In this document: positions 1,926 to 63,413 of the stretch, piece after piece
Numbering within the stretch: the first letter of the stretch is position 1
Layout: each line of letters begins with the position of its first letter
Virus record (IMG/VR): IMGVR_UViG_3300038299_000097
Coordinates: 10,816 to 74,815 of that record
Reading direction: 5' to 3' (one strand)
Length of the DNA stretch: 64,000 nucleotides
Source of the DNA: a virus
Notes under the pieces: model-generated
What the model was told of the DNA's origin: nothing
What the model saw: only the letters and a program-made list of their open reading frames with translations
The model's database searches: none
Made by a program: the position numbers and the translations under genes

Positions 1926-2667
1926 AAAGACATTCACCGTAAATAAAGAAGAGTTCCAGAAGAACTTTCTAGAGCCGATAAATAAATTCAAAGCAGGTTC
2001 AGAGTTCCTACCGCTATATTATCTTGATGGTAAGATAGTGGTATTTTGTGCCCATAGAGCTAAGGAGAGTAAAGCAACAATAGGTCTATATATAGAGTTT
2101 GAACCAGAGTCCTGCAACCTTGAAGAGGGTGATGTTTTTTATGTGAGAGACCCCGCCAAAATTCAGAAGACTATGGCTCTATTGGATGGTGACCGATTAG
2201 TCATCCGAGTGACAAAGAGTCAGATCATTGCAGATGGGGATACAAGATCTACTAAATATCGTTTATATGATTCAATACTAGCATCCAAAGATAAATCATT
2301 CTGGAAACCTACCAGATTCGCCACAATCCGTAGTATAATGGGTGATGGTGTAAAGCTGGATAAGAGTACTATTGAGACTATTCAGAAGGCTAGTGCGTCC
2401 ATTACTGACGATTTAGCACACATTGAGTATGATGAAGACACCGACGAGAATTACATCATCATTGGTGATCAAGATCGTGATTGCTTCAAACTCCAAATCC
2501 CTCATTATGAAGGATTCTCTAAATTCTCTAAATTCTCTAAATTCCTTTTTAATGTCATCGGGCGTAATGATGTAAACTTTTCAGAGACAACCAACCACAA
2601 GATGATGACATTAACAGATAAATCTGAACTCACCACAAAATACTGCTTCGTAGCAAAGTTTGATTAA
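1915..2667 (+). CDS. Probable sliding clamp (gp45-like)
   Basis: 250 aa alpha/beta protein of clamp size next to gp32; no decisive motif. Confidence 0.45.
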   Translation: MEVKKTFTVNKEEFQKNFLEPINKFKAGSEFLPLYYLDGKIVVFCAHRAKESKATIGLYIEFEPESCNLEEGDVFYVRDPAKIQKTMALLDGDRLVIRVTKSQIIADGDTRSTKYRLYDSILASKDKSFWKPTRFATIRSIMGDGVKLDKSTIETIQKASASITDDLAHIEYDEDTDENYIIIGDQDRDCFKLQIPHYEGFSKFSKFSKFLFNVIGRNDVNFSETTNHKMMTLTDKSELTTKYCFVAKFD

Positions 2668-3158
2668 TGGCTAAAATTACAACCAACATAACAAAGGCTT
2701 CATATATGCTTAAGAGGCTTAGAGATTGTGGATATAAGGCTGATAAGATTATCGGTGCTACAGACCCCGTGTCCCTAGATAAGGATCTGGGTAGGTTTAT
2801 ACATAAATTATTCCCAGACGGTAAGAACTTTGGAAATGTTGAAATTTGTGAGACCTTTAAGACGTTCAAAACCGAGTTTATAAGGTTCACAAACACCTGT
2901 CCTAACTACACAGATAGAGATTCCAGAGTGTGGACTATTCTCATAGACGGAGGTCGTGACAACGTGTTCTTGACGTTCTATAGGAATTATAAGGATGTTG
3001 AGGAAGAGTTCGAGCAAATGGGTAATGACTACTTTGAAATATATGACGGAGGTCAATATGTTAAACCGCTACGCAAACGGTTGAGTACTCAGAGTATGGA
3101 GGTTATCATACAAGAGCTTAATGATATGGGCATAACTAAGAAGTTTAGTGATAAATAA
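2667..3158 (+). CDS. Hypothetical protein
   Basis: Coupled by TAATG stop/start overlap. Confidence 0.7.
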   Translation: MAKITTNITKASYMLKRLRDCGYKADKIIGATDPVSLDKDLGRFIHKLFPDGKNFGNVEICETFKTFKTEFIRFTNTCPNYTDRDSRVWTILIDGGRDNVFLTFYRNYKDVEEEFEQMGNDYFEIYDGGQYVKPLRKRLSTQSMEVIIQELNDMGITKKFSDK

Positions 3159-3159
3159 T

Positions 3160-3567
3160 ATGGGTCAAAAAAATGAACCAGATGGTGGTATTGAGAAAAA
3201 TATATTGGATAGCCTAAATCTGAATGATGAACAACGTGAGGGTGCAACTAAGTTTATGGTTGCAATGAGTGGTTTATGGGATATCGATAAAATCGAAGTA
3301 ACTGATGAAGACGACCATATACCAACCAATACAACCAAACCTTTGGACGAACCCCAGATGAATTCTTTAATGAATGTAATGGATGAATTCCTTAACTCTT
3401 ATATATTGGTGGGCTATGACTTGGGTGGTAATAGGGTAAATAGTTTTTCGTTCCCGTCTGAGATGTCAGCCGATGCAGGGCTGACAAATTTAATAGCATC
3501 TGTGAAAACATGTGAGTCTATGGTAAGAGAGGGCATTTTATCTAATAAAGGAAACGATTATGAGTGA
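3160..3567 (+). CDS. Hypothetical protein
   Basis: ORF 3148..3567; ATG at 3160 follows the previous stop. Confidence 0.65.
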   Translation: MGQKNEPDGGIEKNILDSLNLNDEQREGATKFMVAMSGLWDIDKIEVTDEDDHIPTNTTKPLDEPQMNSLMNVMDEFLNSYILVGYDLGGNRVNSFSFPSEMSADAGLTNLIASVKTCESMVREGILSNKGNDYE

Positions 3568-3754
3568 TACCGATAAAAAAATATTCGCAATAAAGGAGAC
3601 AGAGTTAAAAGACATTCTACAAATTCTATCGGGTCTCCCTTATAAAGATGTACATTTACCGATGCTCATCCTAGAGCAACTACCTGTTATATCAGAGGGG
3701 TGTAATTTAACACCACATGGTGAATCTATGGAATTAATTATGGAATCGCCCTAA
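3560..3754 (+). CDS. Small hypothetical protein
   Basis: Overlaps the preceding stop; operon-like packing. Confidence 0.55.
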   Translation: MSDTDKKIFAIKETELKDILQILSGLPYKDVHLPMLILEQLPVISEGCNLTPHGESMELIMESP

Positions 3755-3763
3755 TTAATAGGG

Positions 3764-4381
3764 ATGTCTACAGAACTACCAGATTGCGACGAACCCGAAA
3801 ACAATATAACAGATAATACATATGGTGAAACACCAGATGTGAGTGGTCTTAATAGACTAGTAGATGACAATTTCTTAACAATTCTTAACCTCCCTAAATG
3901 TTTGGGTGGTTATGTTAAGGAAGTGTGCGGTGTAGCGGAAGAGGTTTCATTAAAGAATTTACAACTATCGGTAATGAACTTTACTATACCTCCTATTAAT
4001 ATACCCACTCACAACACCAAATTTTTATCAGCTACTCGTAAAGAGAGTAGCAAGAGCCTGTCAGAGTATGAAGATATAACTATAAACTTCAAACTTGATG
4101 ATCAGCTCATCAATTATAACACATTGTATAAGTGGTTGAATATGTTGGTTGATACTAAGACTGGTACTATGTCTAGTAAGACTAAAATTGATTATGAGAC
4201 TACTTATGATGTAGTAATACTTGACGAATATAGAAAACCCGCAGGTCTATATAAGTTCCATGGTGTTATACCAGTAGGTATCGGATCTATACCACTAGAT
4301 TATAAATCCACAGGAGAATCCATATTTTTAGACTTTACTTTCGCTTTTGACTTCCTTTCTTTCGAACTAGCCCCTAAATAA
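3764..4381 (+). CDS. T4 gp3-like tail completion / tail-tube-fold protein
   Basis: NFTIPPINIP, YEDITINFKLDDQLINYNTLYKWL, FTFAFD motifs; TAATTA motif upstream. Confidence 0.7.
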   Translation: MSTELPDCDEPENNITDNTYGETPDVSGLNRLVDDNFLTILNLPKCLGGYVKEVCGVAEEVSLKNLQLSVMNFTIPPINIPTHNTKFLSATRKESSKSLSEYEDITINFKLDDQLINYNTLYKWLNMLVDTKTGTMSSKTKIDYETTYDVVILDEYRKPAGLYKFHGVIPVGIGSIPLDYKSTGESIFLDFTFAFDFLSFELAPK

Positions 4382-4387
4382 ACTTAT

Positions 4388-4549
4388 ATGAACGATACAG
4401 AAATTAAGAAAGAAATCAGAAACTTCCTAAACCTTTCGACACAGGATGATCACGAGGCAACTGATAAGAGCCTTGAGGTTATAATTAAAGCAAAGATTGA
4501 TAATCGTTACAACGATGCATATGCTGATGTTGTGTCAGAGACTGAATAG
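4388..4549 (+). CDS. Small 53-aa protein (MNDTEIKKEIRNFL...), not in ORF track
   Basis: Read directly; fills the gap between gp3 and the convergent gene. Confidence 0.55.
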   Translation: MNDTEIKKEIRNFLNLSTQDDHEATDKSLEVIIKAKIDNRYNDAYADVVSETE

Positions 4550-4551
4550 TC

Positions 4552-5091
4552 TTAAAATAATACACCCTCTATAGTTTCCACAATTTCCATATAGTTGTCC
4601 TCGTTGGCTTCTATAGGTAATTCGCGTAGAGTTATATCCATAGCAAATGGATTTACGTTAATAGCCCTTATTATAAGCCTTAACATATCCATCTCCTCGA
4701 TCTCGGTTAAACCTTCGATATCACCACCAAACTCTTCTAGTGTTTCATCAGATTCTTTAAAGATTCTCTCGGGGTGGTCTGATAACACGTTCCTAACAGT
4801 TATTAATTTTTCCACCGCACTTAAATTATGAAATCTAGGCATCTTGATATATGCCCTAAACTCGTCACTAGGTTTGAACCTTAATGAGTTTAGTAATACA
4901 TTGGTCAAGTCTATAAGTTTGCTATCATCAGTGTCTACACCCTCCTCACCACTAAGAGCCGTATCTTGATCGGGTGTTAATAAATCGACACCCTCATCAC
5001 CTATAGGTGTTTCATCACCCGACAACCCATCTTCGGCTTCTAGTATAACTACGTTATCATATATTTCGGTGTAATATTCTTTAAATGTCAT
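4552..5091 (-). CDS. Acidic hypothetical protein, possible internal head protein
   Basis: MTFKEYY...ILEA N-terminus; internal two-fold repeat. Confidence 0.65.
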   Translation of the reverse strand: MTFKEYYTEIYDNVVILEAEDGLSGDETPIGDEGVDLLTPDQDTALSGEEGVDTDDSKLIDLTNVLLNSLRFKPSDEFRAYIKMPRFHNLSAVEKLITVRNVLSDHPERIFKESDETLEEFGGDIEGLTEIEEMDMLRLIIRAINVNPFAMDITLRELPIEANEDNYMEIVETIEGVLF

Positions 5092-7778: not shown

Positions 7779-8561
7779 ATGTCTGACATTAATTCTATTA
7801 TAGCAGGTCTTAGTAAACTCAATGATGAGAATACTATCACTTTCAATTTACCCCTTTCAAAAATCGAGGTGACTCTTAAACCATTTCAATCTAAACACGG
7901 TAGTATGGTAAACAGTTCACTAGTTGCGGGTGCCGATGGTACCTATGGTCTTAAATTCATGCCCCTTATCAAGGATATTTTTGATGATATTCTAACATTA
8001 GATGAAGGTAAAACTTATCATAATTTACCATTGGTTGATGTTCATTATATAATCCTAAAAATCAGGGAGACCTTCAACGATGAGGTTATTATTAATTACG
8101 GAACTGATGAACAGACCTCTGTTAATATTAAACATATCATTAGAGGTTTCAATGATCTTAAGATCGATGATAAACCGATAGTGGTAGGTGATGAAATTTG
8201 TTCAGTGGAGGTAGTACAACCATCATTTACAAAAACTTTAAAGTTTGACAATATTCTCATCGCATCGCACGAGAGGTTTTCAGAAAAAGAAAGTGAACAA
8301 CTTGTTAAAGATGCTCTAGCATTTACAATGCTCAAATTTATAAAAAGTATTAAACTGGTTATTGATAACGAAGAACAAAGTGTTACATTATCAGACTATA
8401 ACCCAATGGAGCAGAAGAAGCTGCTTAATATGATACCAAACACTCTTTATAAGGATATCATGAACGCTGTAAAGGGTATAACTGACCCTATGGAGGATCT
8501 GTTACGAATTGATGAGGAAACTGTAGTAGTTATAGATCAGAGTATCTTAGTAGACGTTTAA
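7779..8561 (+). CDS. Baseplate hub assembly protein (gp26-like)
   Basis: LPLSKIEVTLKPF and LPLVDVHYIILKIR motifs; TAATTA motif. Confidence 0.6.
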   Translation: MSDINSIIAGLSKLNDENTITFNLPLSKIEVTLKPFQSKHGSMVNSSLVAGADGTYGLKFMPLIKDIFDDILTLDEGKTYHNLPLVDVHYIILKIRETFNDEVIINYGTDEQTSVNIKHIIRGFNDLKIDDKPIVVGDEICSVEVVQPSFTKTLKFDNILIASHERFSEKESEQLVKDALAFTMLKFIKSIKLVIDNEEQSVTLSDYNPMEQKKLLNMIPNTLYKDIMNAVKGITDPMEDLLRIDEETVVVIDQSILVDV

Positions 8562-25604: not shown

Positions 25605-25633
25605 ATTGACAGGGGTGTAATTATTATGTACAA
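25605..25633 (+). promoter_or_regulatory. Sigma70-type promoter for nrdAB
   Basis: TTGACA-N17-TACAAT. Confidence 0.7.
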
Positions 25634-25646
25634 TACTATGACTGAT

Positions 25647-27887
25647 ATGGAAAAAGAGATACGAATTGTGAAGAGGGACGGAGTTGAAGAGAACTTCAAA
25701 ATAGACAAAATTACAAAAATACTGGAGTGGGCATGTGAAGGGATCGAGGATGTGGTACCAGACCATATATTATACAACGCTAAGTTAAATGTTTTTGACG
25801 GCATTAAATCTAGTGAGATACACCAAATCATTGTGGAGTCTGCTGCAAGCCTTATTGATAAAGAGGTTAATTACACCAAGGTTGCGGCAAGCCTTATGAA
25901 TTATAAACTTCGTAAAGAGGTTTGGGGTGGTAAGAACCCACCAAAGCTTTATGATCTCCTCAAGAAGGGTATTAAGAAAGGCTTCTACGACCCAGAGCTT
26001 ATCAAAATTTACACCAAGGCTCAGATCAATAAGCTTGATGAGTATATCAAGCATGATAGGGACAGTCGTTTTGAGTATGGTGGTCTAGTACAACTTACGG
26101 AGAAGTATTTAGTACAGAACCGTAACACCAAGGAGATCGTGGAAACGCCCCAATTTGCGTACATGATGGCATCGATGGCACTTTGTATCAAAGAAGCACC
26201 ACGACAGCGTGTGAAGTGGGTGAAGGAGTTCTATGATGACTTCTCTAATCATAAGATCAACGTGTCCACACCAATTATGTCGGGTGCAAGAACAAGAGTC
26301 CGTAGCTATTCATCATGTTGTATTATTGACGTAGCTGATACTAAGCATTCCATCACATCATCTGTCACATCATCTGTGTTGGTTACTGCTGATAAGTATG
26401 GTATTGGACTCAACTATTCTAAGATCCGTTCTATCAATGAACCAATCCGTGGCGGGGAAGCTTCACACGGTGGTGTAATCCCTTGGTTGAAACTCAGTCA
26501 AGCAGCGATTCAAGCATCACAGCAAGGACCTAGACGTGGTGCGGGTACGTGTACGTTCTTCGCAATGCATCCAGAGATCGAAACTATCCTACAATTAAAG
26601 GATACACTTCTTCCAGAGGACAGAAAGGTCGAGCACTTGGATTACTCCATTGCTATGACAAACCTATTCTACCACAGACTACTAGAAGGTGGTGACATTA
26701 CGTTGTGTTCATATAACCAAGCACCAGATGTTTACAAGGCATATGGTACACCATTTTTCAACGATATCTATGAAAAGTGGGAGCTGGAGAATCCAGATGC
26801 ACCCAAGATTACTACCGAAAGGTTCTTCTCATTACTCGCTAAACAACGTAGTGAGACTGCTAGAATTTACATCTACAACATTGACGAGAACTTCACCAAC
26901 TCTGCTTGGTTGCCTCGTGTTGAGGCATATAATTTATGTCAAGAAGTGGGTGGACCTACTAAACCCGAACGGTTCACAGAAGACCCAGAAGCTGAAACGG
27001 TTGTGTGTGTCCTCAGTGCCCCCAATGCATGTAATATAAAGGATGATGCGGATCACAAGAGAGTACTTTACAACATTGTTCGTATCCTTGATAACGTCAT
27101 CGATGTACAGGAGTACACGGTGGATGCTTGTAAGAGGTATGCAGAGAACAAACGCTCACTTGGTGTTGGTATTAGTAACCTAACAGGTTGGCTCGCACTC
27201 CAAGGTCTTAACCACTCATCTATTGAGACACCACAGGTGGTTTCAGACTTCTTCGAGAAACAACAATACTACCTTATTGAAGCATCTATTGAACTAGCTA
27301 AAGAGCGTGGTAAGTGTAAGGATTTCAACCAGTCTAAATACTCTAAAGGTATTATGCCAGTGGATCGTTACAATAAGAATGTTCATGAGTTCCTTGATGA
27401 AGAACACAAGCTCGACTGGGACAGGATCAGAGCAGCAGTATTGAAGTATGGTATGAGACATTGTACTCTATCATCATTCATGCCATGTGAAGCTAGTTCG
27501 GTTGTACAGTCATCTACTAACGGGTTTGAACCAATTCGTGACCTAGTGGTGTACAAAGAATCCAAGACAGCAATGACTATTGTAGTAGCACCAAATGTGA
27601 AGACACATGGTCAACACTATGTTAGAGCTTATGACGCACCTAACAACGATGGTTACATCAAAGTAGTAGCAGTACTGACTAAGTGGTCTGACATGGGTGT
27701 TAGTGGTAATCTATACTACAACCCTGCATACTTCGAAGGTGGTATCATCCCACAAGATTACATCATCCAAGATATCCTCACAGCAACCCGATACGGTTGG
27801 AGAACTTTCTACTACCATAACACCGATGATGGTGATAAGGAAGTAAGCGAAGATAGTGCTTGCGCCTCTGGTGCTTGCTCACTATAA
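25647..27887 (+). CDS. nrdA: Ribonucleotide reductase class Ia alpha subunit
   Basis: ATP-cone IVKRDG, SSCC, NLCQE, TFYY and C-terminal CASGAC; exact start uncertain. Confidence 0.95.
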   Translation: MEKEIRIVKRDGVEENFKIDKITKILEWACEGIEDVVPDHILYNAKLNVFDGIKSSEIHQIIVESAASLIDKEVNYTKVAASLMNYKLRKEVWGGKNPPKLYDLLKKGIKKGFYDPELIKIYTKAQINKLDEYIKHDRDSRFEYGGLVQLTEKYLVQNRNTKEIVETPQFAYMMASMALCIKEAPRQRVKWVKEFYDDFSNHKINVSTPIMSGARTRVRSYSSCCIIDVADTKHSITSSVTSSVLVTADKYGIGLNYSKIRSINEPIRGGEASHGGVIPWLKLSQAAIQASQQGPRRGAGTCTFFAMHPEIETILQLKDTLLPEDRKVEHLDYSIAMTNLFYHRLLEGGDITLCSYNQAPDVYKAYGTPFFNDIYEKWELENPDAPKITTERFFSLLAKQRSETARIYIYNIDENFTNSAWLPRVEAYNLCQEVGGPTKPERFTEDPEAETVVCVLSAPNACNIKDDADHKRVLYNIVRILDNVIDVQEYTVDACKRYAENKRSLGVGISNLTGWLALQGLNHSSIETPQVVSDFFEKQQYYLIEASIELAKERGKCKDFNQSKYSKGIMPVDRYNKNVHEFLDEEHKLDWDRIRAAVLKYGMRHCTLSSFMPCEASSVVQSSTNGFEPIRDLVVYKESKTAMTIVVAPNVKTHGQHYVRAYDAPNNDGYIKVVAVLTKWSDMGVSGNLYYNPAYFEGGIIPQDYIIQDILTATRYGWRTFYYHNTDDGDKEVSEDSACASGACSL

Positions 27888-28010: not shown

Positions 28011-29084
28011 ATGAGTAACACAGTTTTAAATCTAGAGAAGCGTGATGCATTGGCTGAACCAATGTTTTTCGGCACACCCCTTGGAATCCAACGTTTCGAC
28101 GTGGTTAAATATCCAGAGTTTGCAAAGTCCGTAGAGACACAATTTTCCAACATGTGGAACCCAAAGGAGATAGGTATGGCATCAGACCTAGCTTGTTATG
28201 AATCACTCTCAGATACCGAGAGATTCATCTTCGAGACAAATCTTCGATTCCAGACAGCGGGTGATTCACTACTTTCCAGAAGTATTGAAGCAATCAAACA
28301 ACATGTCACAAACTCAGAACTTGAGTACGCAATGAACTGGTGGGGTCTTATGGAGAATATTCACTCCGAGAGTTACACCCACGTACTACAAGGGATCACT
28401 AAAGATCCTACACCATTCTTCGATTCTATTCTAGAAGACACAGAACTGGTTGAACGTATGCAGACCATCATCAAACCCTTCAATGACCTTCTTGAAGATA
28501 AGGAAGGTGACTGTAAGCGCACGAAATTATTCAAAGCGGTGTTGGCACTACAAATTGCTGAAGGTGTTCTATTCTACACATCATTTGCATGTAGTTTCTT
28601 CTTCGCTAAGAACGGTAAGATGACCCAGAACGGTAAGATCATTTCTATGATTAAGCGTGATGAGTCAGAGCACCAATCAATCACACAGAACATACTCAAG
28701 AGAATGCGCGAAGATCCGTCCGAGGGGTTCCAAGATATCGTAAAGGCTCATGAACAATTCGTTTATGATTCATACGAGGTTGCACTTGATGGTGAAAAGA
28801 AGTGGGGTGATTACTTATTCTCTAAGGGTGAGATGGTCGGACTTACTAAAGCATCTCTCCATGGCTATGCTGAGTGGAATGTTCGTGGTCGTTTGAGATC
28901 CAATGGTTATGATCCATCAAAGTTTGCTTACCCACTAGCAGAACAGAATCCTATTTCATGGTTGGTTAAATTCCTTGACTCAAGTCGTGTACAGGCGGCA
29001 CCTCAAGAGATCGAGAAGACTGATTATAAGAAGATGGGAACTGTAAACAATCTTGGTAGTTCGCTTAAGACATTAAAATTCTAA
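28011..29084 (+). CDS. nrdB: Ribonucleotide reductase class Ia beta subunit
   Basis: ENIHSESY, EGVLFYTSF, RDESEH and QAAPQE motifs. Confidence 0.95.
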   Translation: MSNTVLNLEKRDALAEPMFFGTPLGIQRFDVVKYPEFAKSVETQFSNMWNPKEIGMASDLACYESLSDTERFIFETNLRFQTAGDSLLSRSIEAIKQHVTNSELEYAMNWWGLMENIHSESYTHVLQGITKDPTPFFDSILEDTELVERMQTIIKPFNDLLEDKEGDCKRTKLFKAVLALQIAEGVLFYTSFACSFFFAKNGKMTQNGKIISMIKRDESEHQSITQNILKRMREDPSEGFQDIVKAHEQFVYDSYEVALDGEKKWGDYLFSKGEMVGLTKASLHGYAEWNVRGRLRSNGYDPSKFAYPLAEQNPISWLVKFLDSSRVQAAPQEIEKTDYKKMGTVNNLGSSLKTLKF

Positions 29085-29102
29085 GTTTATTACCAACTTA
29101 GC

Positions 29103-29131
29103 TTGACACTGATTTAAAACTGTGCTAATCT
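29103..29131 (+). promoter_or_regulatory. Sigma70-type promoter P1 of the ncRNA array
   Basis: TTGACA-N17-TAATCT; unit 1 starts 7 nt downstream. Confidence 0.75.
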
Positions 29132-29137
29132 AAGTAT

Positions 29138-29225
29138 GTCACCAGCTACAGGAAGGATATATATAATTCAGTCGGGATCACCCTTCGGGGCATCCCCGAT
29201 CCAACAACCTTCCTAATACGGTGAC
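29138..29225 (+). ncRNA. Y-RNA-like unit 1 (apical cUUCGg hairpin)
   Basis: gtcacc/ggtgac stem, AGCUA/AAUAC internal loop, aggaagg/ccttcct stem, ccc-ttcg-ggg. Confidence 0.7.
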
Positions 29226-29380
29226 TATAAATAAAACGCCCAGCCACGGCTGGGTTATATTATAAAACTGAAGTCGAAAGACATTGGGGGTTCGAGTCCC
29301 TCACTTCCCACTCGACGGGAAGTTGGCGAAATTGGTAGACGCATCAGATCAACTCATCCAATTCGGGCGTTTTATTTATA
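29226..29380 (+). ncRNA. Y-RNA-like unit 2 with permuted tRNA-Leu-like domain (YrlA-like)
   Basis: Perfect 16-bp terminal stem; AGCCA/AAUUC loop; then variable arm, T-arm (29286-29302), closed acceptor stem acttccc/gggaagt, D-arm tggcgaaattggtagacgca. Confidence 0.8.
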
Positions 29381-29384
29381 TTCA

Positions 29385-29473
29385 GATCAAATGAAAACAG
29401 TTCCTCAGCTAAGTGTATGTTATTTATATTCAAAACACACATACCCAATTCGGGGAGTTGTTTTCATTTGATT
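29385..29473 (+). ncRNA. Y-RNA-like unit 3 (minimal)
   Basis: About 22-bp terminal stem, AGCUA/AAUUC loop, gtatgt/acatac stem, AU-rich loop ending tcaaaacac. Confidence 0.7.
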
Positions 29474-29549
29474 TAAGAGAACGTCTATCTCTGGGACGGT
29501 ACTCCGTTACCAGTAGCGTCTTGTTATAAAGATAATGTCAAAACAGTTG

Positions 29550-29577
29550 TTGACAATATGATCAAACCTGTTAAAGT
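29550..29577 (+). promoter_or_regulatory. Sigma70-type promoter P2 of the ncRNA array
   Basis: TTGACA-N16-TAAAGT; unit 4 starts 7 nt downstream. Confidence 0.7.
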
Positions 29578-29583
29578 AATTGT

Positions 29584-29646
29584 GTCACCAGCTAAGAGAG
29601 TGTTATTTAAATGAAATCAAAACACACACACTCTCAATACGGTGGC
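29584..29646 (+). ncRNA. Y-RNA-like unit 4 (minimal)
   Basis: gtcacc/ggtggc stem, AGCUA/AAUAC loop, gagagtgt/acactctc stem, loop ending tcaaaacac as in unit 3. Confidence 0.7.
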
Positions 29647-29792
29647 TATAAATATGGCATTCAGCTAGGTATAAGTTAAACTATTAAACAATTGGTCACA
29701 GGTTCAAATCCTGTCATCTCAGCCTTATGGGATGTAGCTCAGTCTGGTAGAGCAGTTGATACAACTTGTACGATTCGGGTGCCATATTTATA
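29647..29792 (+). ncRNA. Y-RNA-like unit 5 with permuted tRNA-Asn-like domain (YrlA-like)
   Basis: 16-bp terminal stem; AGCUA/GAUUC loop; T-arm acagg-ttcaaat-cctgt, closed acceptor catctca/tgggatg, D-arm tagctcagtctggtagagc. Confidence 0.8.
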
Positions 29793-29825
29793 TCCTTCAA
29801 CATAAACAACAAACACCACTAACTA

Positions 29826-31868
29826 ATGTTACTATCCGAAAACGCAGTATATGTTCAGCCTTCTAAGTCAGCTCGTAGTAAGAGCAACTCAGTTAAAATT
29901 GCTAACCTGCTCTCTATTGAGTTAATGAACTACGGTATTCAGCTAAGTGCCGACCTTCGTAATTCAATTTCCAAGCTTAATGCCAAGGACGCTCAGTCAG
30001 TAGCTACTGAGATCCTTAAGGCTAACACCATGGGTAGTCTAACACCACCACTTTTCCGTAATTGGGAACAGCGTAATGCGTTCACCACTGGGGAGATCAT
30101 TGTGCAACTCTTTGCATACGTATTCCAAATCTCTGGTAATGATCTTTATGATCCAGAGTTCCTCAACAACCTTGACCGTGATTTTGATTACACCAAGACG
30201 CTCAACCTTGCTACCAAGGATGACGCAACCAAGAAGTTCAGCACTCTTGCAACCACACGAGTGCCACTCGACATGGCTTCTATGCAACTTGTAGTACAAC
30301 TTGCTAAGACACTTCCTTTGGACAACTGTGAACGTATCTTCTCTGATGAAGTTCGTGTGGCTGTTATCGACGGTGATGGCGGTTGTGACTTTAAATCTTT
30401 CAAAGGGCGACCAACTGACGTTCTTAAACTCTTCGCACTCCGCAAGAATCAAAACACTCTCGACATGAAACTACCTGTCGATGTCAAATTTGACGCCCTC
30501 TCATGGTCTGAGAGAATCAAAACACTTGAGTTCCTTGAGTCCTTCGGTTTCGAATATCTATCTGAAGAGATGGGTAAGAACCGTGGAGCTTGGTCTAAGT
30601 TCTTCAACCACATTCATGCTTTCGGGCAGAAGGGTTGGAGTAATAGATTCCCTAATTTCATGATGGCATCAATGGCATCCGTTCAACGTAATATTAGTCT
30701 AGTAGATAAGAAGACCGTCAAAGGTTTCTCAGAACTAATACTTAGTGGTGGCGTTGAAGTGGTTTCTAATAAGTTTGTTTACCGTACATTCGCTTCCCGT
30801 GTAGAATCAACACTCAAAAACTACAAGACATTTGATCAAGTGGTTGCAGTGTTTGGTAACAAGGGTTCTTATGTTCTCAACAACTTGACCTCTATTTCTA
30901 ACAAGATCAAGAAGGCAGACTCTCGTAAGTTTGTGGAGCTTGTTCGTGGGTTTCTTACCAATGCACCAGTCAAAACTCTGTTCTCTATTCTATCTATCGA
31001 TGTGAATGCAGAGTGGCGTGTGATTGATGTTAAGGGTAGCACCAAGATCGAAACTGCCAACTATAGTTCTGTCATTGGTGACATCCAAGGTGACATCAAG
31101 ATCGCCCTACATGAGCGTTTCGGGTTCGAGGGTAAGGTAACAGTCGATAAAGAGCTTGCGACACTAGGTGTGCCATTCTTGACCACTAGTTCACAACTTA
31201 GCCGTGGTACTCGTTACTCATTCACTGATGACGAATATCTCTACTTCTTCATGAAGTGGATTCAGCCAGAGAATCGGACTACAGATCTTGACCATAGCCT
31301 TCTTTACTTCGATGCGGATTGGAATTCACAACACGTTTCATTCTCTCGTCAAGTTGATACATTCATCCGACATGGTGGTGACATCACCAGTGCGCCAGCC
31401 CCACATGGTGCCAGTGAATACTCACGAGTTGATCTCAAACTAATCCCGAAAGCTGTTAAGTACATCGTACCATCAGTGTTCGTATATAGAGGTACTAAAC
31501 TTTCATTGAATGATGAGGCATATGCAGGATTCTACTTCGGTGATAACGATTCGTTCTCCCTTAAACAGGAACACACACGTTACGACTTCACTCAGCCATC
31601 AGGGTTTAACGTACCATTCATCATCGACGTTGAGAATCGCGAGATTGTAGTGGTGGATTATAACCAAGAGACCTCTGGTAATGTTGTTCAGTCTGCTGTA
31701 TGTGATATCAAGAACCTCATCAGTGCTACGAATTCTAAGAACTACATCACCGTTGAGGATCTAGCAGAGATTCTATCTGGTGATAAGGATACCACATCCT
31801 TAAATATCTCAAACGATAGTGGCGATGGTATAGTAGCACCACAGGATTTATTCTCACTGTTCGCATAA
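29826..31868 (+). CDS. Helical protein with C-terminal TerD-like domain; candidate Ro60/TROVE-like RNA-binding protein
   Basis: N-terminal ELMNYG...PLFRNW; C-terminal W...DLDHS...HGGDITSAP..GASEY; directly downstream of the RNA array. Confidence 0.65.
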   Translation: MLLSENAVYVQPSKSARSKSNSVKIANLLSIELMNYGIQLSADLRNSISKLNAKDAQSVATEILKANTMGSLTPPLFRNWEQRNAFTTGEIIVQLFAYVFQISGNDLYDPEFLNNLDRDFDYTKTLNLATKDDATKKFSTLATTRVPLDMASMQLVVQLAKTLPLDNCERIFSDEVRVAVIDGDGGCDFKSFKGRPTDVLKLFALRKNQNTLDMKLPVDVKFDALSWSERIKTLEFLESFGFEYLSEEMGKNRGAWSKFFNHIHAFGQKGWSNRFPNFMMASMASVQRNISLVDKKTVKGFSELILSGGVEVVSNKFVYRTFASRVESTLKNYKTFDQVVAVFGNKGSYVLNNLTSISNKIKKADSRKFVELVRGFLTNAPVKTLFSILSIDVNAEWRVIDVKGSTKIETANYSSVIGDIQGDIKIALHERFGFEGKVTVDKELATLGVPFLTTSSQLSRGTRYSFTDDEYLYFFMKWIQPENRTTDLDHSLLYFDADWNSQHVSFSRQVDTFIRHGGDITSAPAPHGASEYSRVDLKLIPKAVKYIVPSVFVYRGTKLSLNDEAYAGFYFGDNDSFSLKQEHTRYDFTQPSGFNVPFIIDVENREIVVVDYNQETSGNVVQSAVCDIKNLISATNSKNYITVEDLAEILSGDKDTTSLNISNDSGDGIVAPQDLFSLFA

Positions 31869-31917: not shown

Positions 31918-31957
31918 ATTGACACAAACCGCCAAATATAGTAAGGTCTCTCCACAG

Positions 31958-33880
31958 ATGAATATACCCGTAGAACCACAGAACACAGTGAAGTCCAATA
32001 ATTTCGAGACTTCAGAGATGACCATCGAACTTGGTCAGATTAATATGGTAGCCCAGATTGTTAGGGATAAGATTTATACTGATAAACCCATGGCACCAGT
32101 TCGAGAGTATGGGTGCAATGCACTTGACGAACACCTAAAGCATAATGTTGGAAGGATGGTCGAGTTCACTATTGATGATATTAAAAGTACATTCAGCGTG
32201 AGGGACTTCGGTCTAGGACTTAGTAATGATTTTGTAATGAAAGTCTACGGCATGATAGGTAAGACCACTAAGAAGGATGACGACACCCAGACTGGTGGGT
32301 ATGGTCTAGGCTCTAAGTCTGGACATGCTTACGGTGATCAGTTCACTATCACGTCATACTACGGCGGTAAGAAGACTGTATACATTGCCATCCTTGAAGG
32401 AGATGGTGTACCAATTGGTGTGATCAACAAGGTTAGTGTAACAGACACTGATGAACCAACTGGTGTTGAGATCTCACTACCTATTAAAGATGGTGAACTA
32501 CCCTCATTCAAAGATCGCATGTCAACATTCCTTAAGGGTGTTCGTACTGACGTTGTGTACAATGGTGAGGTTCATAATGAAAGACACCCAACGGTTGAAG
32601 GCCATAGCCACATCCACCACAGTGCTTCCCATGTTAGAATGGGTGATGTTATCTATAAGATTGATTTCCCTACACAGTTCACCAAGAACAATATTCCTAT
32701 CACAATCGATGCACCGTTAACCTCTCTAACATTCCCCCCAAGCCGTGAGTCTATCGATAACACACCACACAACCAAAAGGTTATAGATGACATTATCAAT
32801 GAGTACATGGCTATTGAGGATCTAAAATTTAAAGAGTTGCTTAAGACTGAGAAGGTGAACACACTACTCAAACTTGCCACATCAACCCAGACATACAGGT
32901 ATCTTGTAACTCTCAATAACTATGTTAAAGACGGTCTTACTATATCAACCAAGACTCAACTTGGTTATGTGATGGCAAATAATGATATACTTATGAGCTA
33001 TATGGATCAGCGTGATGGTTATGAAGTTTTCAAACATAATCGTGATCAGAACGCTAAACCTAAGAAGATGGAACTTAGTACGATTGAGATGACTAACTTC
33101 TTCATATCTAAAAGGCGGTGTGGTGTACCACTATCTAACGAGATCGTTAAGCACTATGATAAAGACGATCTTAAATATGACAAATACTGTACAGAGTTCT
33201 CGGTTATATATGAACACAAAGGTAACCAAGAATTCATCACAGAGCTTCGCAAGGTTCTAGAGTGTCGTGATCTTGATGAAGACGTGTACATTAAAACCAA
33301 TGTTACCAGAGCCGCAACCAAAGCTCGTAGAGGTAAGGTAGAGTTCAGTAAACTTAATAAAGTAGAGTATGGTAGAATTAGAAATAATGATACCGACATC
33401 AATTCTCTTGTTAAGTCATACCCATTATTCTACTCCGACTGGCAGGATTATTCCAGACGTACAAAACAACCTTACTATAAACTCACCAAGGTACAATTTG
33501 AATACCTAAAATCTAAGGGTTATAAGATGGTTCATATGACTAATATGAATGATACACTAAAACAGATGGTGTATGATAAGTCTACCAAGCTAGAACGTTT
33601 CCAGTATGCTAAGTATAGGTTCATAGAAAAGTCTGATGTTCGTAAACATTTTGCCAAGGGTGTTATGTTTAAGCAACCTAGATATAAGAAATCATTTGAT
33701 GCATTCAAAGATATTGATTATGATGAGTCTGTTGAGTATAAGAAGTTTATTGACATTCTAGGTAGAGTGAGTGATAATATATTACCTTCTTGGAAAGTTC
33801 GAGCAATGAAAAGGCTCGCAGGTTTCAACGGTGCTACAGAACACAAAGAGGCAATGGATATAATTTTACACGCAAAATAA
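31958..33880 (+). CDS. rIIA: rIIA-like protein (N-terminal GHKL/HATPase domain)
   Basis: IYTDKPMAPVREYGCNALD, SVRDFGLG and GGYGLGSKS motifs; adjacent to rIIB. Confidence 0.88.
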   Translation: MNIPVEPQNTVKSNNFETSEMTIELGQINMVAQIVRDKIYTDKPMAPVREYGCNALDEHLKHNVGRMVEFTIDDIKSTFSVRDFGLGLSNDFVMKVYGMIGKTTKKDDDTQTGGYGLGSKSGHAYGDQFTITSYYGGKKTVYIAILEGDGVPIGVINKVSVTDTDEPTGVEISLPIKDGELPSFKDRMSTFLKGVRTDVVYNGEVHNERHPTVEGHSHIHHSASHVRMGDVIYKIDFPTQFTKNNIPITIDAPLTSLTFPPSRESIDNTPHNQKVIDDIINEYMAIEDLKFKELLKTEKVNTLLKLATSTQTYRYLVTLNNYVKDGLTISTKTQLGYVMANNDILMSYMDQRDGYEVFKHNRDQNAKPKKMELSTIEMTNFFISKRRCGVPLSNEIVKHYDKDDLKYDKYCTEFSVIYEHKGNQEFITELRKVLECRDLDEDVYIKTNVTRAATKARRGKVEFSKLNKVEYGRIRNNDTDINSLVKSYPLFYSDWQDYSRRTKQPYYKLTKVQFEYLKSKGYKMVHMTNMNDTLKQMVYDKSTKLERFQYAKYRFIEKSDVRKHFAKGVMFKQPRYKKSFDAFKDIDYDESVEYKKFIDILGRVSDNILPSWKVRAMKRLAGFNGATEHKEAMDIILHAK

Positions 33881-33881
33881 T

Positions 33882-34862
33882 ATGAAGAAAACAGAATACG
33901 CTTATAGCAATGGTGGCGTAACAATAATCAATATGCTAACAGGGGAACCCACCTCGTTCGAGTCGGGGTCTAAGGACTATGATTTTGTATTGGAGAACAT
34001 CGATGACGATGATCAACTATATAGAATCGTTACAGAAGGTATCGAACAATTCTTTGAAAAGGAGTTGGTCAACATCTTTGATGAACACAAGGACTTTATC
34101 ATGGTGGCTGGTCACAAAGTGAAGAACCACCTTGTATCAACTTGGATCGATATCCGACACAAGGGTGGTGATACCCAAGCGTATGAACTATTCCTTGAGA
34201 ACCTAGCTCGTAATCCATCAGCCACATCCATCAAGGAATTGGTAGACTTCCTATCACACGGGGGTTTCCCTATCACTGAAGATGGTTGCTTCCTAGCATA
34301 CAAGGGAGTCCAAACAAATGGTTGGAGTGTTAAAGGTAACTTGGACACCGTGGTGTTAGAGGGTGATACCAACTCAAAGGGTCAGATCAACAACGTACTA
34401 GGGGGTACCATCCGTATCAAACGAGCATCATGTGATGATGACCGTAAGAAGACATGTAGTTTTGGTGTCCACGTTGGTACTTTTAACTATGCATCTAACT
34501 GGGGTGATCGACTTGTACTGGTCAAGGTCAATCCAGAAGACGTGGTGTCTGTACCAGTTGATGGTTATGAGAAGCTCCGTTGTTGTGCCTATAGTGTCGA
34601 GAAGCTTTATGGTAAGGCTGAGGGTGAATTAGAACAATCAACTGCTAACATCGTTGAAGGTGAGATTGTCACCGCTGACACTGCTGTAACGGTTGCTGAT
34701 ATGGTCAAACTGGCGATTTATGAATACAACTGCTTCAAGGTGTGTGACGTAGAAATGTGGGTCCGTTGTGAGTATAGTATAGCACTCAACGAGGTTCAAA
34801 TCATCAATGCTGTTAAGGAATTGGGTATGCGCGTTGTCGGCGTTGACACGATTCTGGTCTAG
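33882..34862 (+). CDS. rIIB: rIIB-like protein
   Basis: PITEDGCFLAYKGV, CSFGVHV and VKVNPEDVVSVPVD..KLRCC motifs. Confidence 0.9.
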   Translation: MKKTEYAYSNGGVTIINMLTGEPTSFESGSKDYDFVLENIDDDDQLYRIVTEGIEQFFEKELVNIFDEHKDFIMVAGHKVKNHLVSTWIDIRHKGGDTQAYELFLENLARNPSATSIKELVDFLSHGGFPITEDGCFLAYKGVQTNGWSVKGNLDTVVLEGDTNSKGQINNVLGGTIRIKRASCDDDRKKTCSFGVHVGTFNYASNWGDRLVLVKVNPEDVVSVPVDGYEKLRCCAYSVEKLYGKAEGELEQSTANIVEGEIVTADTAVTVADMVKLAIYEYNCFKVCDVEMWVRCEYSIALNEVQIINAVKELGMRVVGVDTILV

Positions 34863-40768: not shown

Positions 40769-41421
40769 CTGATTCATTGGAGTGTATTAGTCCACCACTT
40801 ACAGGCTGTGCAGGATTTGATACAACCTCATACTTCATCAGCCCAGAGAACCCTATTAGTGGGGTAAATGATTTTTGTATAGAAGTAGTAGGTGATCACA
40901 CCACTGGTATATTTACCGATGGAGGTTTTTGGTCTATCGAATGGGATGGTGTAAGTGGATAGGTCATGTTAGATCCTGTAGCGGGTAGTGATATACCAGA
41001 CCCTCACGGTAATGAAAAGGGTGAATATTGTCCAGAGGGTATATATTCATTCTTACAGGCTAGTGGTAATAATAACAATAACCAAATTGTAACTTCGACA
41101 TGTCCATTCGATGTTAACATATAGGAATATAATGCAAATTTAACATGGTATGATATCAATGGTGATTTTGAATCATCAGAAGTTGTAACTATGACAGGGT
41201 CAACCCTAAACGGTGAATACTTCGGTGCCACAGCACTAGGTGATGATGTTTCACTATACTGGGATGGTAGTAAATGGATTGTTGAAATGATGATGCCTAC
41301 ACCACCATATACACCACTAGACGTTGGTTCAATTATTAGGAATGATGCATTGGGTAATTATACACCAAGTGCCCCCTCTGGTGCATTCCCTAGATGGGAG
41401 GCTGATATTGTATTACCTTAA
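40728..41421 (+). pseudogene. Disrupted C-terminal continuation of the 39086 gene
   Basis: One reading frame interrupted only by TAG at 40960 and 41122; repeats the WDG..W motif of the upstream ORF. Confidence 0.7.
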
Positions 41422-63332: not shown

Positions 63333-63339
63333 ATAAAGG

Positions 63340-63413
63340 TTGGCGTGGTAGGATTTGAACCTACATTGTCTCCTCAAAACGGAGAGCGTAATAACCAGTT
63401 ATACTACACGCCA
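63340..63413 (-). tRNA. tRNA, anticodon read as UUU (Lys) with atypical loop GTTTTGA
   Basis: TGGCGTG/CACGCCA acceptor; TCTCC/GGAGA anticodon stem; GTAGG-TTCAAAT-CCTAC T-arm. Confidence 0.75.

What the first reader, a model, noticed from the sequence alone, without database searches (positions are those of the whole stretch)
29257..29350. Circularly permuted tRNA-Leu-like domain opened at the anticodon loop
Seen: the order is taaaa-ctga, variable arm gtc-gaaa-gac, T-arm ggggg-ttcgagt-ccctc, acceptor 3' strand acttccc, 7-nt linker, acceptor 5' strand gggaagt, D-arm tggcgaaattggtagacgca, tcag. Rearranged, this is a class II Leu-type tRNA whose acceptor end is sealed and whose anticodon loop is replaced by the carrier stem. 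Keeping a long variable arm is unusual for the YrlA RNAs I know. Inference: it derives from a real tRNA-Leu(UAA), for example from the junction of a tandem duplication. It is either an unchargeable mimic or a precursor matured by cutting the linker.
Basis: partly seen in the sequence, partly recalled or inferred. Interest (0 to 1): 0.78.

Follow-up and report, generated by a model that had tools for sequence, protein, structure and literature searches.

The report
Leucine-tRNA mimic on phage Y-like RNA
A phage small RNA carries a leucine-tRNA body written in rotated order (sealed acceptor end, no anticodon loop) on a conserved stem "handle", just upstream of a gene for a protein whose predicted shape resembles Ro60, so it is most likely a new variant of the known tRNA-mimicking Y RNAs and not a broken or split tRNA.

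Summary
At 29268-29347 the order is anticodon-stem 3' strand, variable arm, T arm, 7-bp acceptor stem closed by a 7-nt loop, Leu-type D arm, anticodon-stem 5' strand. Rotated in silico, ARAGORN calls it a tRNA in 30 of 30 joins and in 0 of 300 shuffles. Among 185 phage tRNAs its body is closest to tRNA-Leu.

It is not a stand-alone element. It fills the apical loop of one of five tandem hairpin modules (29138-29792) that share a handle: stem, C-AGCYAN / NNUWC-G internal loop, stem. This handle covaries strongly and recurs upstream of orthologues of the next gene (29826-31868).

That 680-aa protein has a C-terminal TerD fold. Its helical N-terminal domain has Ro60 structures as its best fold matches (Z 8.1, 7.2, 5.6), but it shows no sequence similarity to TROVE.

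Sub-threshold YrlA-like tRNA mimics lie beside distant homologues of this gene in at least six other phage lineages.

Long variable arms are already published for YrlA RNAs, and the "UAA anticodon remnant" depends on the register chosen.

This is a new variant of a known kind. Notes from earlier in this scan report the same RNA-protein pair on other DNA (at least 34 genomes).

The parts
29226..29241 (+). Basal stem 1, 5' strand (TATAAATAAAACGCCC). It pairs perfectly over 16 bp with 29365-29380.
   Evidence: The paralogous unit at 29647-29662 / 29777-29792 keeps the pairing with compensatory changes.
29242..29247 (+). 5' side of the conserved internal loop of the handle (AGCCAC; family consensus C-AGCUAN).
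   Evidence: CAGCUA is invariant in 17 simple modules. This unit has C in place of the U.
29248..29256 (+). Stem 2, 5' strand (GGCTGGGTT). It pairs with 29351-29359 in 8 of 9 positions, with one C-U mismatch.
   Evidence: The homologous stem 2 covaries in alignment A3.
29257..29267 (+). 5' joining strand ATATTATAAAA. With the end of stem 2 it reads UUAUAUU, the family's WUAUW motif.
29268..29271 (+). Anticodon-stem 3' strand CTGA (positions 40-43). It pairs with TCAG at 29344-29347.
29273..29282 (+). Variable arm: 3-bp stem GTC/GAC with a GAAA loop. It also matches GNCGAAN0-1G, though not near the RNA 5' end.
   Evidence: Motif definition from PMC4201824.
29286..29302 (+). T arm GGGGG-TTCGAGT-CCCTC, with canonical T54, psi55, C56 and A58 letters.
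29303..29323 (+). Acceptor stem of 7 bp (ACTTCCC / GGGAAGT) closed by the 7-nt loop ACTCGAC. The first loop base is A at the discriminator position. The predicted RNase P site would be 29316/29317.
   Evidence: The cleavage is inferred from the M. smegmatis precedent.
29324..29343 (+). U8 and G9, then the Leu-type D arm GCG-AAATTGGTAGA-CGC, then A26.
   Evidence: 88% identity to annotated phage tRNA-Leu genes..
29344..29347 (+). Anticodon-stem 5' strand TCAG (positions 27-30).
29351..29380 (+). Stem 2 3' strand (AACTCATCC), 3' side of the internal loop (AATTC), and the stem 1 3' strand (GGGCGTTTTATTTATA).
29138..29225 (+). Simple handle module A1 (no tRNA part). It starts 7 nt after a promoter-like TTGACA-17-TAATCT and abuts the Leu-type unit.
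29386..29475 (+). Handle module C, with a long AU-rich basal stem and core at 29403-29455.
29584..29646 (+). Simple handle module A2, downstream of promoter-like TTGACA-16-TAAAGT at 29550-29577.
29647..29792 (+). Paralogous unit B2: the same handle carrying a class I tRNA-like domain. T arm 29698-29714, closed 7-bp acceptor 29715-29734, D arm 29737-29753.
   Evidence: Rfam YrlA 41.2 bits, E 2.4e-7, below the gathering score of 69..
29826..31868 (+). Gene for the 680-aa candidate protein partner: helical N-terminal domain (about 130-455) plus a C-terminal TerD fold (about 465-631).

Best explanation
The element is the tRNA-like 'cargo' domain of a small non-coding RNA built like a YrlA-type Y RNA.

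Shown: a basal stem and a conserved asymmetric internal loop (C-AGCYAN / NNUWC-G) form a handle shared by five tandem RNAs. In this unit and in one paralogue, the apical loop of the handle is replaced by a tRNA body in rotated order with a sealed acceptor stem. Here the body is of the class II tRNA-Leu type. It folds as an L-shaped tRNA core but has no anticodon loop and no free CCA end, so it cannot decode.

Inferred: the handle is bound by the protein encoded 446 nt downstream, which has a Ro60-shaped helical domain and a TerD domain. The tRNA-shaped end then recruits or occupies a tRNA-recognising factor, such as a modification enzyme, RNase P, the CCA-adding enzyme, LeuRS, or an RNA-repair or decay enzyme. 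This would parallel how Y RNAs tether Ro60 to effectors.

The Leu-type body most likely came from a tRNA-Leu dimer junction and was captured separately from the class I body of the paralogue.
For: Fold and tRNA character:
- All helices are intact, and rotation gives a tRNA call in 30/30 joins against 0/300 shuffles.
- The body is nearest to tRNA-Leu.
- The proposed structure lies within 1 kcal/mol of the MFE.

Handle:
- The same stem/loop/stem is found 21 times on the gene's strand, directly upstream of the gene in the window and in four about-43%-identical orthologous loci. It is found once on the other strand across all DNA held.
- In alignment A3, 95.9% of cells are paired, 12 of 13 pairs change on both sides, and 0 of 500 shuffles reach this.
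- The two tRNA-bearing units keep the 16-bp stem through compensatory changes.

Protein:
- TerD fold at VIA Z 14.3 and Foldseek probability 1.00.
- The N-terminal domain searched alone against 48,161 chains gives Ro60 of phage phiLo (Z 8.1, 248 residues aligned) and D. radiodurans Rsr (Z 7.2, 274 aligned) at ranks 1 and 2. Xenopus Ro60 is at rank 7 (Z 5.6, 278 aligned). The unrelated rows mostly align about 75-125 residues.

Linkage:
- Closed-acceptor tRNA mimics lie beside distant homologues of this gene in L007/8/9, L018, L032, L046, L064/65 and L069/70, always on the gene's strand.
- In five of these lineages (L008, L018, L032, L064, L069) they score 35-46 bits with Rfam YrlA. L046 scores 26.4 bits.
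- In four contigs the best YrlA-like match of the whole contig is the one next to the gene.
- In Rhodococcus phage Weasels2 the pair lies about 3 kb from RtcB, as rsr-yrlBA-rtcBA does in Salmonella (PMC4201824).

Precedents: YrlA RNAs with long class II-like variable loops, and phage Ro60-Y RNA particles (bioRxiv 10.1101/312249; PMC12135203).
Against: - There is no experimental or transcript evidence for the RNA, its ends, or any protein binding.
- The Rfam YrlA model does not match this unit even at E <= 10.
- The Ro60-like reading of the protein rests on fold scores in the range the tool itself calls 'middling' for helical repeats. Foldseek finds nothing for the N-terminal domain.
- Pfam TROVE, a profile search of PDB sequences and hhalign against a TROVE alignment are all negative.
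- This unit has C where the handle's CAGCUA is otherwise invariant. Its 5' part can form a competing hairpin at 29238-29255.
- The four closest orthologous loci carry handles without any tRNA cargo.
- Six distinct Leu-type permuted tRNA mimics found elsewhere lie in phage contigs, two of them at least 96% complete, with no detectable member of this protein family, TROVE or TerD. Such mimics may therefore not need this partner.
- No close relative of this phage could be fetched, so covariation within the Leu-type domain itself is untested.
Confidence: 0.6

Rival explanations
1. Processed, nicked tRNA-like RNA. RNase P cuts 5' of G29317. The 3' side is trimmed to the discriminator A29310 and receives CCA. 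The result is a two-piece RNA held together by its stems, with a free acceptor end that LeuRS could charge, since LeuRS does not read the anticodon. This can coexist with the main explanation.
For: The acceptor stem is exactly 7 bp, with A at the discriminator position and a 7-nt single-stranded loop. M. smegmatis YrlA, the one YrlA with a 7-bp stem, is cleaved by RNase P in vitro and is found cleaved with CCA added in vivo (PMC4201824). The body carries Leu-type core features: A73, a 3-bp D stem, and A15 with U48 available for the Levitt pair (read from the sequence).
Against: There is no read or end-mapping evidence. Salmonella YrlA and D. radiodurans Yrn1 are not cleaved. No CCA is encoded after A29310. 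Charging by LeuRS is pure inference.
Confidence: 0.2
2. Partner-independent tRNA decoy. The RNA acts alone by occupying a host factor that recognises the tRNA elbow or the tRNA-Leu body, for example a tRNA-targeting defence nuclease or a modification enzyme. The handle serves only for stability.
For: Six distinct Leu-type permuted mimics occur in other phage contigs that lack the TerD-fusion family, TROVE and TerD. Two of those contigs are estimated to be at least 96% complete.
Against: It does not explain why the same handle also occurs on three cargo-less RNAs here and on 2-5 cargo-less RNAs upstream of every close orthologue of the gene. It also does not explain why YrlA-like mimics sit beside distant homologues of the gene.
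Confidence: 0.12
3. Cis-acting leader. The five structures are operator sites in the 5' untranslated region of the 680-aa gene, which the protein binds to control its own synthesis. They would not be free small RNAs.
For: The array ends 33 nt before the start codon, and I saw no separate promoter for the gene.
Against: In L032, L046 and L069 the tRNA mimic lies downstream of the gene. In L005 single modules each follow their own copy of a promoter-like repeat. A full tRNA-shaped domain is not needed for an operator.
Confidence: 0.06
4. Decayed remnant of two tandem tRNA-Leu genes, or a true permuted tRNA gene of the Cyanidioschyzon type that is circularised and re-cut into a working tRNA.
For: The T-arm-to-D-arm order is what a tRNA dimer junction gives. 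Collinear BLAST matches are such junctions, and 115 pattern matches across the first 120 IMG/VR loci are such junctions.
Against: The flanks show no trace of the missing tRNA halves. Instead they pair with each other over 16 + 9 bp and carry the family handle. The two acceptor strands are perfectly complementary and only 7 nt apart. There is no anticodon loop to restore, and every helix is intact.
Confidence: 0.02

Closest known systems
YrlA-type bacterial and phage Y RNAs bound by Ro60/Rsr (Rfam RF02553; Chen et al. 2014, PMC4201824; Wang et al. 2018, bioRxiv 10.1101/312249)
   Same: - The order is variable region, T arm, closed acceptor-like stem-loop, D arm, on a long stem formed by the RNA's two ends.
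- tRNA core nucleotides are kept.
- Long class II-like variable loops occur in many YrlA RNAs.
- A 7-bp acceptor stem occurs in M. smegmatis YrlA.
- Several Y RNAs lie next to the protein gene.
- A proposed origin from dimeric tRNA.
   Different: - The D arm is tRNA-Leu-like, not the conserved YrlA GCUCAG..GGUAGAGC, so the Rfam model does not see it.
- The carrier has a different conserved loop (C-AGCYAN / NNUWC-G) and no 5'-proximal GNCGAAN0-1G.
- No TROVE gene is present in the 74.8-kb contig.
- The neighbouring protein has TerD where Ro60 has vWA, and shows no sequence similarity to Ro60.
Phage Ro60 with Y-RNA-like RNAs (Thermus phage phiLo Yrl1/Yrl2, PMC12135203; mycobacteriophage Ro, e.g. 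Bxz1)
   Same: A phage-encoded ring-shaped helical protein with two or more small structured RNAs encoded just upstream. phiLo Ro60 is the best fold match of the N-terminal domain (Z 8.1).
   Different: phiLo and Bxz1 proteins are recognisable TROVE + vWA proteins. Their RNAs use a CGAA-containing bulge.
Phage T4 species 1 and 2 RNAs (rnaC, rnaD) in the tRNA cluster
   Same: Small stable RNAs of a T4-like phage that keep parts of a tRNA. rnaC has a T arm and an acceptor-like end.
   Different: They are in normal, not rotated, order with an open acceptor end. They have no CAGCUA handle and are not next to a TerD-fusion gene.
Circularly permuted tRNA genes of Cyanidioschyzon merolae (from my own knowledge)
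   Same: The 3' half of a tRNA is encoded upstream of the 5' half, joined by a short linker at the acceptor ends.
   Different: Those genes keep a complete anticodon loop and are matured through a circular intermediate into normal tRNAs. Here the anticodon loop is absent and is replaced by a 25-bp carrier.

Membership tests
YrlA (Rfam RF02553) | T arm, closed acceptor-like stem-loop and D arm in that order, flanked by a stem made from the 5' and 3' parts of the RNA | tested here: met
YrlA (Rfam RF02553) | tRNA core nucleotides for the L-shape: U8, A14, G18 G19, T54 psi55 C56, A58, and a 15:48 Levitt pair | tested here: met
   Read from the sequence: U at 29324, D loop AAATTGGTAGA with GG, T loop TTCGAGT, and A15 with U48 (29285). 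The fold itself is not probed.
YrlA (Rfam RF02553) | Score at or above the family's gathering threshold (69 bits) | tested here: not met
   No match to this unit even at E <= 10. The paralogue at 29690-29760 scores 41.2 bits.
YrlA (Rfam RF02553) | GNCGAAN0-1G motif near the 5' end (proposed Rsr contact) | tested here: not met
   The only match, GTCGAAAG at 29273-29280, is the variable arm next to the T arm and is not 5'-proximal. The paralogue B2 has none.
YrlA (Rfam RF02553) | Encoded within about 4 kb of a Ro60 (TROVE) gene on the same strand | tested here: inconclusive
   There is no TROVE match in the 74,815-base contig, which is estimated 33% complete. A protein with a Ro60-like predicted fold starts 446 nt downstream on the same strand.
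Functional tRNA-Leu | Contiguous cloverleaf with anticodon loop and free acceptor end | tested here: not met
   ARAGORN and Rfam tRNA do not call it. There is no anticodon loop and the acceptor end is closed.
Functional tRNA-Leu | Leu-type body: class II variable arm, 3-bp D stem with AAUUGGUAGA loop, A73 | tested here: met
Permuted tRNA genes (Cyanidioschyzon type) | Both halves together restore a complete tRNA including the anticodon loop after circularisation | tested here: not met
   The flanks form a 16-bp and a 9-bp stem with the family handle. The anticodon call depends on an arbitrary join.
Ro60 / TROVE (for the neighbouring protein) | Sequence match to the TROVE domain | tested here: not met
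   Pfam gives no hit at E <= 10. The PDB profile search has no Ro60. hhalign against a TROVE alignment gives probability 0.15.
Ro60 / TROVE (for the neighbouring protein) | Ring of helical repeats superimposable on Ro60 | tested here: inconclusive
   VIA-align gives ranks 1, 2 and 7 of 48,161 chains: 9l5y Z 8.1 (rmsd 5.0, 248 aligned), 2nvo Z 7.2 (rmsd 4.8, 274 aligned), 1yvp Z 5.6. Similar results come from the full-length model. Foldseek is negative.
Ro60 / TROVE (for the neighbouring protein) | C-terminal vWA domain with MIDAS | tested here: not met
   The C-terminal domain has a TerD fold: 2qz7 Z 14.3, Foldseek probability 1.00.

The most novel reading that the evidence does not exclude
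The Leu-type domain is one of two interchangeable tRNA 'cargoes' mounted on a previously undescribed RNA handle. That handle is the binding site of a Ro60-shaped, TerD-carrying phage protein. Together they would form a second, sequence-unrelated lineage of Ro60/Y-RNA-like particles, widespread in large phages (about 2,000 protein cluster representatives). In this lineage tRNA bodies of different classes have been captured repeatedly from tRNA dimer junctions. [quoted passage not shown]
Probability: 0.4. Interest if true: 0.8.

Novelty: new variant of a known kind. Interest (0 to 1): 0.62.

Why it matters
tRNA-mimicking Y RNAs are known only as partners of recognisable Ro60 proteins, and the factor that their tRNA-shaped end engages is still unknown.

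This locus shows the same design on a different handle, next to a different protein (Ro60-like shape, TerD in place of vWA). It carries two different tRNA bodies, class II Leu-type and class I, side by side. If the pairing is real, three things follow:
- The Y-RNA principle extends to a large family of phage proteins that nobody has annotated.
- The tRNA end is a swappable module.
- A natural pair of cargoes becomes available for asking which tRNA-binding enzyme is being recruited or blocked during infection.

The Leu-type unit, with its exact 7-bp acceptor stem, is also a clean test case for whether such mimics are opened by RNase P and charged.

Tried and rejected
As a result the 231-kb contig holding the identical protein and the 84%-identical relative could not be fetched.
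- No close relative of this phage was found. Tried: the protein in IMG/VR, a handle pattern in IMG/VR, the protein in JGI metagenomes, and a 19-nt handle pattern in metagenomes, which gave 14 chance matches in unrelated DNA. Covariation inside the Leu-type domain therefore could not be tested.
- BLAST of the element against named phages gave apparently collinear hits in BcepSaruman and Synechococcus phage ACG-2014i. These proved to be ordinary tandem tRNA junctions.
- Rfam sub-threshold YrlA hits below about 30 bits were disregarded, because the same search rings in 6 of 14 control genomes.
- Sequence homology of the protein to Ro60 was sought and not found.
- RtcB is not in this contig.
- T4 rnaC/rnaD were examined as a possible relative and rejected because they are in normal order and have no handle.
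- The GTCGAAAG match to the YrlA Rsr motif is treated as coincidental, because of its position in the variable arm and its absence from the paralogue.
- My rotated version of the paralogue B2 used wrong end points, so its negative ARAGORN result is not evidence.

Full report
**Setting**

The window is part of a 74,815-base IMG/VR phage contig, estimated 33% complete. It is T4-like in gene content.
- nrdA lies at 25626-27887 and nrdB at 28011-29084.
- rIIA lies at 31919-33880 and rIIB at 33882-34862.
- Between nrdB and the next gene is a 741-nt stretch (29085-29825) with no long ORF.

**Checking the observation**

- CTGA 29268-71
- A GAAA-capped 3-bp variable arm 29273-82
- T arm 29286-302
- ACTTCCC 29303-09
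- Loop ACTCGAC 29310-16
- GGGAAGT 29317-23
- TG, then D arm GCG-AAATTGGTAGA-CGC 29326-42
- A, then TCAG 29344-47

In native order neither ARAGORN nor the Rfam tRNA model calls a tRNA. I rotated the sequence in silico and closed the anticodon loop with 5-9 natural flanking letters in 30 different ways. ARAGORN called a class II tRNA every time. It called none in 300 dinucleotide shuffles of one rotated version.

The anticodon it reports is Leu, Tyr, Phe, Ser or unassignable, depending on the join. The isotype cannot therefore be read from an 'anticodon remnant'. With standard numbering the letters at 34-36 are AUA, not UAA.

The body is nonetheless Leu-type.
- The D-arm half matches annotated phage tRNA-Leu genes at 88% identity.
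- Two pieces match a Rhizobium phage tRNA-Leu at 98% identity.

**What surrounds it**

The flanks of the tRNA-like core pair with each other. There is a perfect 16-bp stem (29226-41 with 29365-80) and a 9-bp stem with one mismatch (29248-56 with 29351-59). Between them is an asymmetric internal loop, AGCCAC on the 5' side and AATTC on the 3' side. This cloverleaf-on-carrier structure is within 1 kcal/mol of the MFE. The unit folds far better than shuffles, with z = -4.8.

A second unit at 29647-29792 has the same plan with compensatory changes in the basal stem. It carries a class I tRNA-like domain that the Rfam YrlA model recognises at 41.2 bits, E 2.4e-7, below the gathering score of 69.

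Following a lead from another first-stage note, I checked that three further hairpins share the stem / C-AGCYAN ... NNUWC-G / stem handle. These are 29138-29225, 29386-29475 and 29584-29646.

**Is the handle real?**

The downstream 680-aa protein has 82 homologues of similar length in the 90%-clustered database. It has about 2,000 cluster representatives at E <= 1e-3 in the 50%-clustered one. A profile-guided scan of IMG/VR gave 69 loci.

The four loci with about-43%-identical orthologues (L003-L006) each have 2-5 tandem hairpins with the same handle directly upstream of the gene. Across all DNA held there are 21 matches on the gene's strand and 1 on the other strand.

An alignment of 17 cargo-less modules gave the following.
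- CAGCUA, a UAU at the start of the apical loop, and the closing CG are invariant.
- 95.9% of cells are paired.
- 12 of 13 pairs change on both sides.
- The covariation score is 0.97 against 0.29 in shuffles (0 of 500 reach it).
- Pairing collapses when the partner columns are slid.

The 3' joining strand carries the family's CAAC-like motif. The tRNA body is therefore an insertion into the apical loop of a handle module. In the Leu-type unit the otherwise invariant U of CAGCUA is C.

**The neighbouring protein**

There is no Pfam match, even at E <= 10. An AlphaFold model built from 35 homologues has mean pLDDT 83.8.

Its C-terminal domain is a TerD fold. Foldseek gives probability 1.00 and VIA-align gives Z 14.3 to 2qz7.

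An all-against-representatives search that does not depend on Foldseek placed D. radiodurans Rsr, Xenopus Ro60 and phage phiLo Ro60 at ranks 3, 5 and 8, with 300-335 aligned residues.

I modelled the N-terminal 455 residues alone from 21 diverse homologues. The same search then placed these structures as follows.
- phiLo Ro60 at rank 1: Z 8.1, rmsd 5.0, 248 aligned, collinear with its helical domain.
- Rsr at rank 2: Z 7.2, 274 aligned.
- Xenopus Ro60 at rank 7: Z 5.6, 278 aligned.
- The unrelated rows mostly align about 75-125 residues; none is a Ro60.

These Z values are in the range the tool warns can arise from common helical arrangements. Foldseek found nothing. No sequence method links the family to TROVE.
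- A profile search of PDB sequences was negative.
- hhalign against an alignment of mycobacteriophage, actinobacterial and phage G Ro60 gave probability 0.15.

I therefore treat 'Ro60-shaped' as probable, and homology as unshown. Distant family members carry a prokaryotic RING finger (Prok-RING_4).

**Linkage between the protein family and tRNA mimics**

I wrote a strict scanner for this arrangement: T arm, then a 6-7-bp hairpin immediately after it, then two bases, then a D arm. Besides the two units of the window, it found such domains next to distant homologues of the gene in L007/8/9, L018 (two), L032, L046, L064/65 and L069/70. All are on the gene's strand, and their acceptor loops of 3-6 nt (20 nt in one L018 copy) exclude tandem tRNAs.

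Rfam YrlA scores them 35-46 bits in five of these lineages; L046 reaches only 26.4 bits. When whole contigs are searched, the best YrlA-like match of four contigs is the one beside the gene. Matches below about 30 bits were ignored, because the control genomes also ring at that level.

Those contigs have no TROVE gene. Their carriers share a different motif, CUUCCUUC. The handle thus changes with the protein clade.

L046 is the isolated Rhodococcus phage Weasels2. There the gene (gp266, 'hypothetical') sits in the tRNA cluster, the mimic lies in the unannotated gap after it, and RtcB is about 3 kb downstream. This echoes the Salmonella rsr-yrlBA-rtcBA arrangement (PMC4201824).

**Comparison with the literature**

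Chen et al. 2014 define YrlA by four features.
- A 5'-proximal GNCGAAN0-1G.
- T, AS, D and often V stem-loops.
- tRNA core nucleotides.
- Location within 4 kb of Ro60.

They also show that M. smegmatis YrlA, with a 7-bp acceptor stem, is cut by RNase P and gains CCA.

Wang et al. 2018 state that many YrlA RNAs have long, class II-like variable loops, and they cite the dimeric-tRNA origin model.

Phage Ro60-Y RNA particles are known (PMC12135203; PMC7824862). I found no paper in the held library that links TerD with Ro60 or Y RNAs. Two relevant reviews were not held.

**Is a Leu-type cargo unique?**

No. Of the matches in the 120 loci, 115 overlap real tRNA calls and are tandem junctions. Seven loci, six of them distinct, have a closed 6-7-bp acceptor hairpin and no tRNA call.

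Their contigs, two of them at least 96% complete, show no member of the protein family, no TROVE and no TerD. This is the main caution against an obligatory protein partner. It is the basis of the decoy rival.

**Verdict**

The element is best described as the tRNA-Leu-shaped cargo of a YrlA-like small RNA on a new handle. It probably works with the downstream Ro60-shaped TerD protein.
- Shown: the fold-compatible sequence, the Leu-type body, the conserved covarying handle, and the recurrent gene-RNA neighbourhood.
- Inferred: expression, protein binding, the effector engaged, and any RNase P opening or charging.

Notes from earlier in this scan report the same RNA-protein pair, including Leu-type cargo, in at least 34 other genomes. 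I used them only as leads and tested the claims again here.

This prevented a covariation test on close relatives.

Noticed in passing
L088 (Rhodococcus phage Weasels2, NC_041887.1) 2619-4697, 4908-4962, 7854-7987: In this isolated phage the homologous 692-aa 'hypothetical protein' gp266 sits in the tRNA cluster. An unannotated YrlA-like tRNA mimic lies in the 388-nt gap after it, and RtcB lies about 3 kb downstream. This is a culturable system in which the pair could be tested.
   Followed up: partly
L015, L018, L026, L035 (IMG/VR loci near homologues of the 680-aa gene): ARAGORN-89-nt long-arm tRNAs with anticodons UUG ('Gln') and UUA ('Stop'). These are class II bodies with unexpected anticodons. 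Rfam scores some as sub-threshold tRNA-Sec. They may be suppressor or recoding tRNAs.
   Followed up: no
L007/L008, L018, L032, L069 upstream of the tRNA-like domains: The carriers of the YrlA-like RNAs beside distant homologues share a CUUCCUUC motif in the 5' strand instead of the CAGCUAN loop seen here. The handle appears to change with the protein clade.
   Followed up: partly
P0104, P0140, P0169, P0180 (distant family members): Longer relatives (about 840-870 aa) of the 680-aa protein carry a Prok-RING_4 zinc finger near residue 120, ahead of the helical and TerD parts.
   Followed up: no
L097, L120, L123/L193, L184, L195, L212: Six distinct Leu-type permuted tRNA mimics with closed acceptor hairpins occur in other phage contigs. 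For the five contigs searched (L212's was not), no TerD-fusion, TROVE or TerD gene was detected.
   Followed up: partly
window 29238-29255: GCCCAGC-CACG-GCTGGGT can form a 7-bp hairpin followed by a U-rich run. This would compete with the handle's internal loop in the Leu-type unit. It exists only because this unit has C in place of the invariant U of CAGCUA.
   Followed up: no
L005 1890-2240: A promoter-like repeat of about 40 nt (AAAAAGTGCTTGACTTA...TATAATG) precedes three successive handle modules. This suggests that the modules are transcribed individually in that phage.
   Followed up: no
window 41230-41306 (+): Sub-threshold match to the fluoride riboswitch model: 25.7 bits, gathering score 34, E 0.006.
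   Followed up: no
window 63338-63413 (-): This tRNA-Lys(UUU) is the only conventional tRNA gene in the window and in the whole contig.
   Followed up: no
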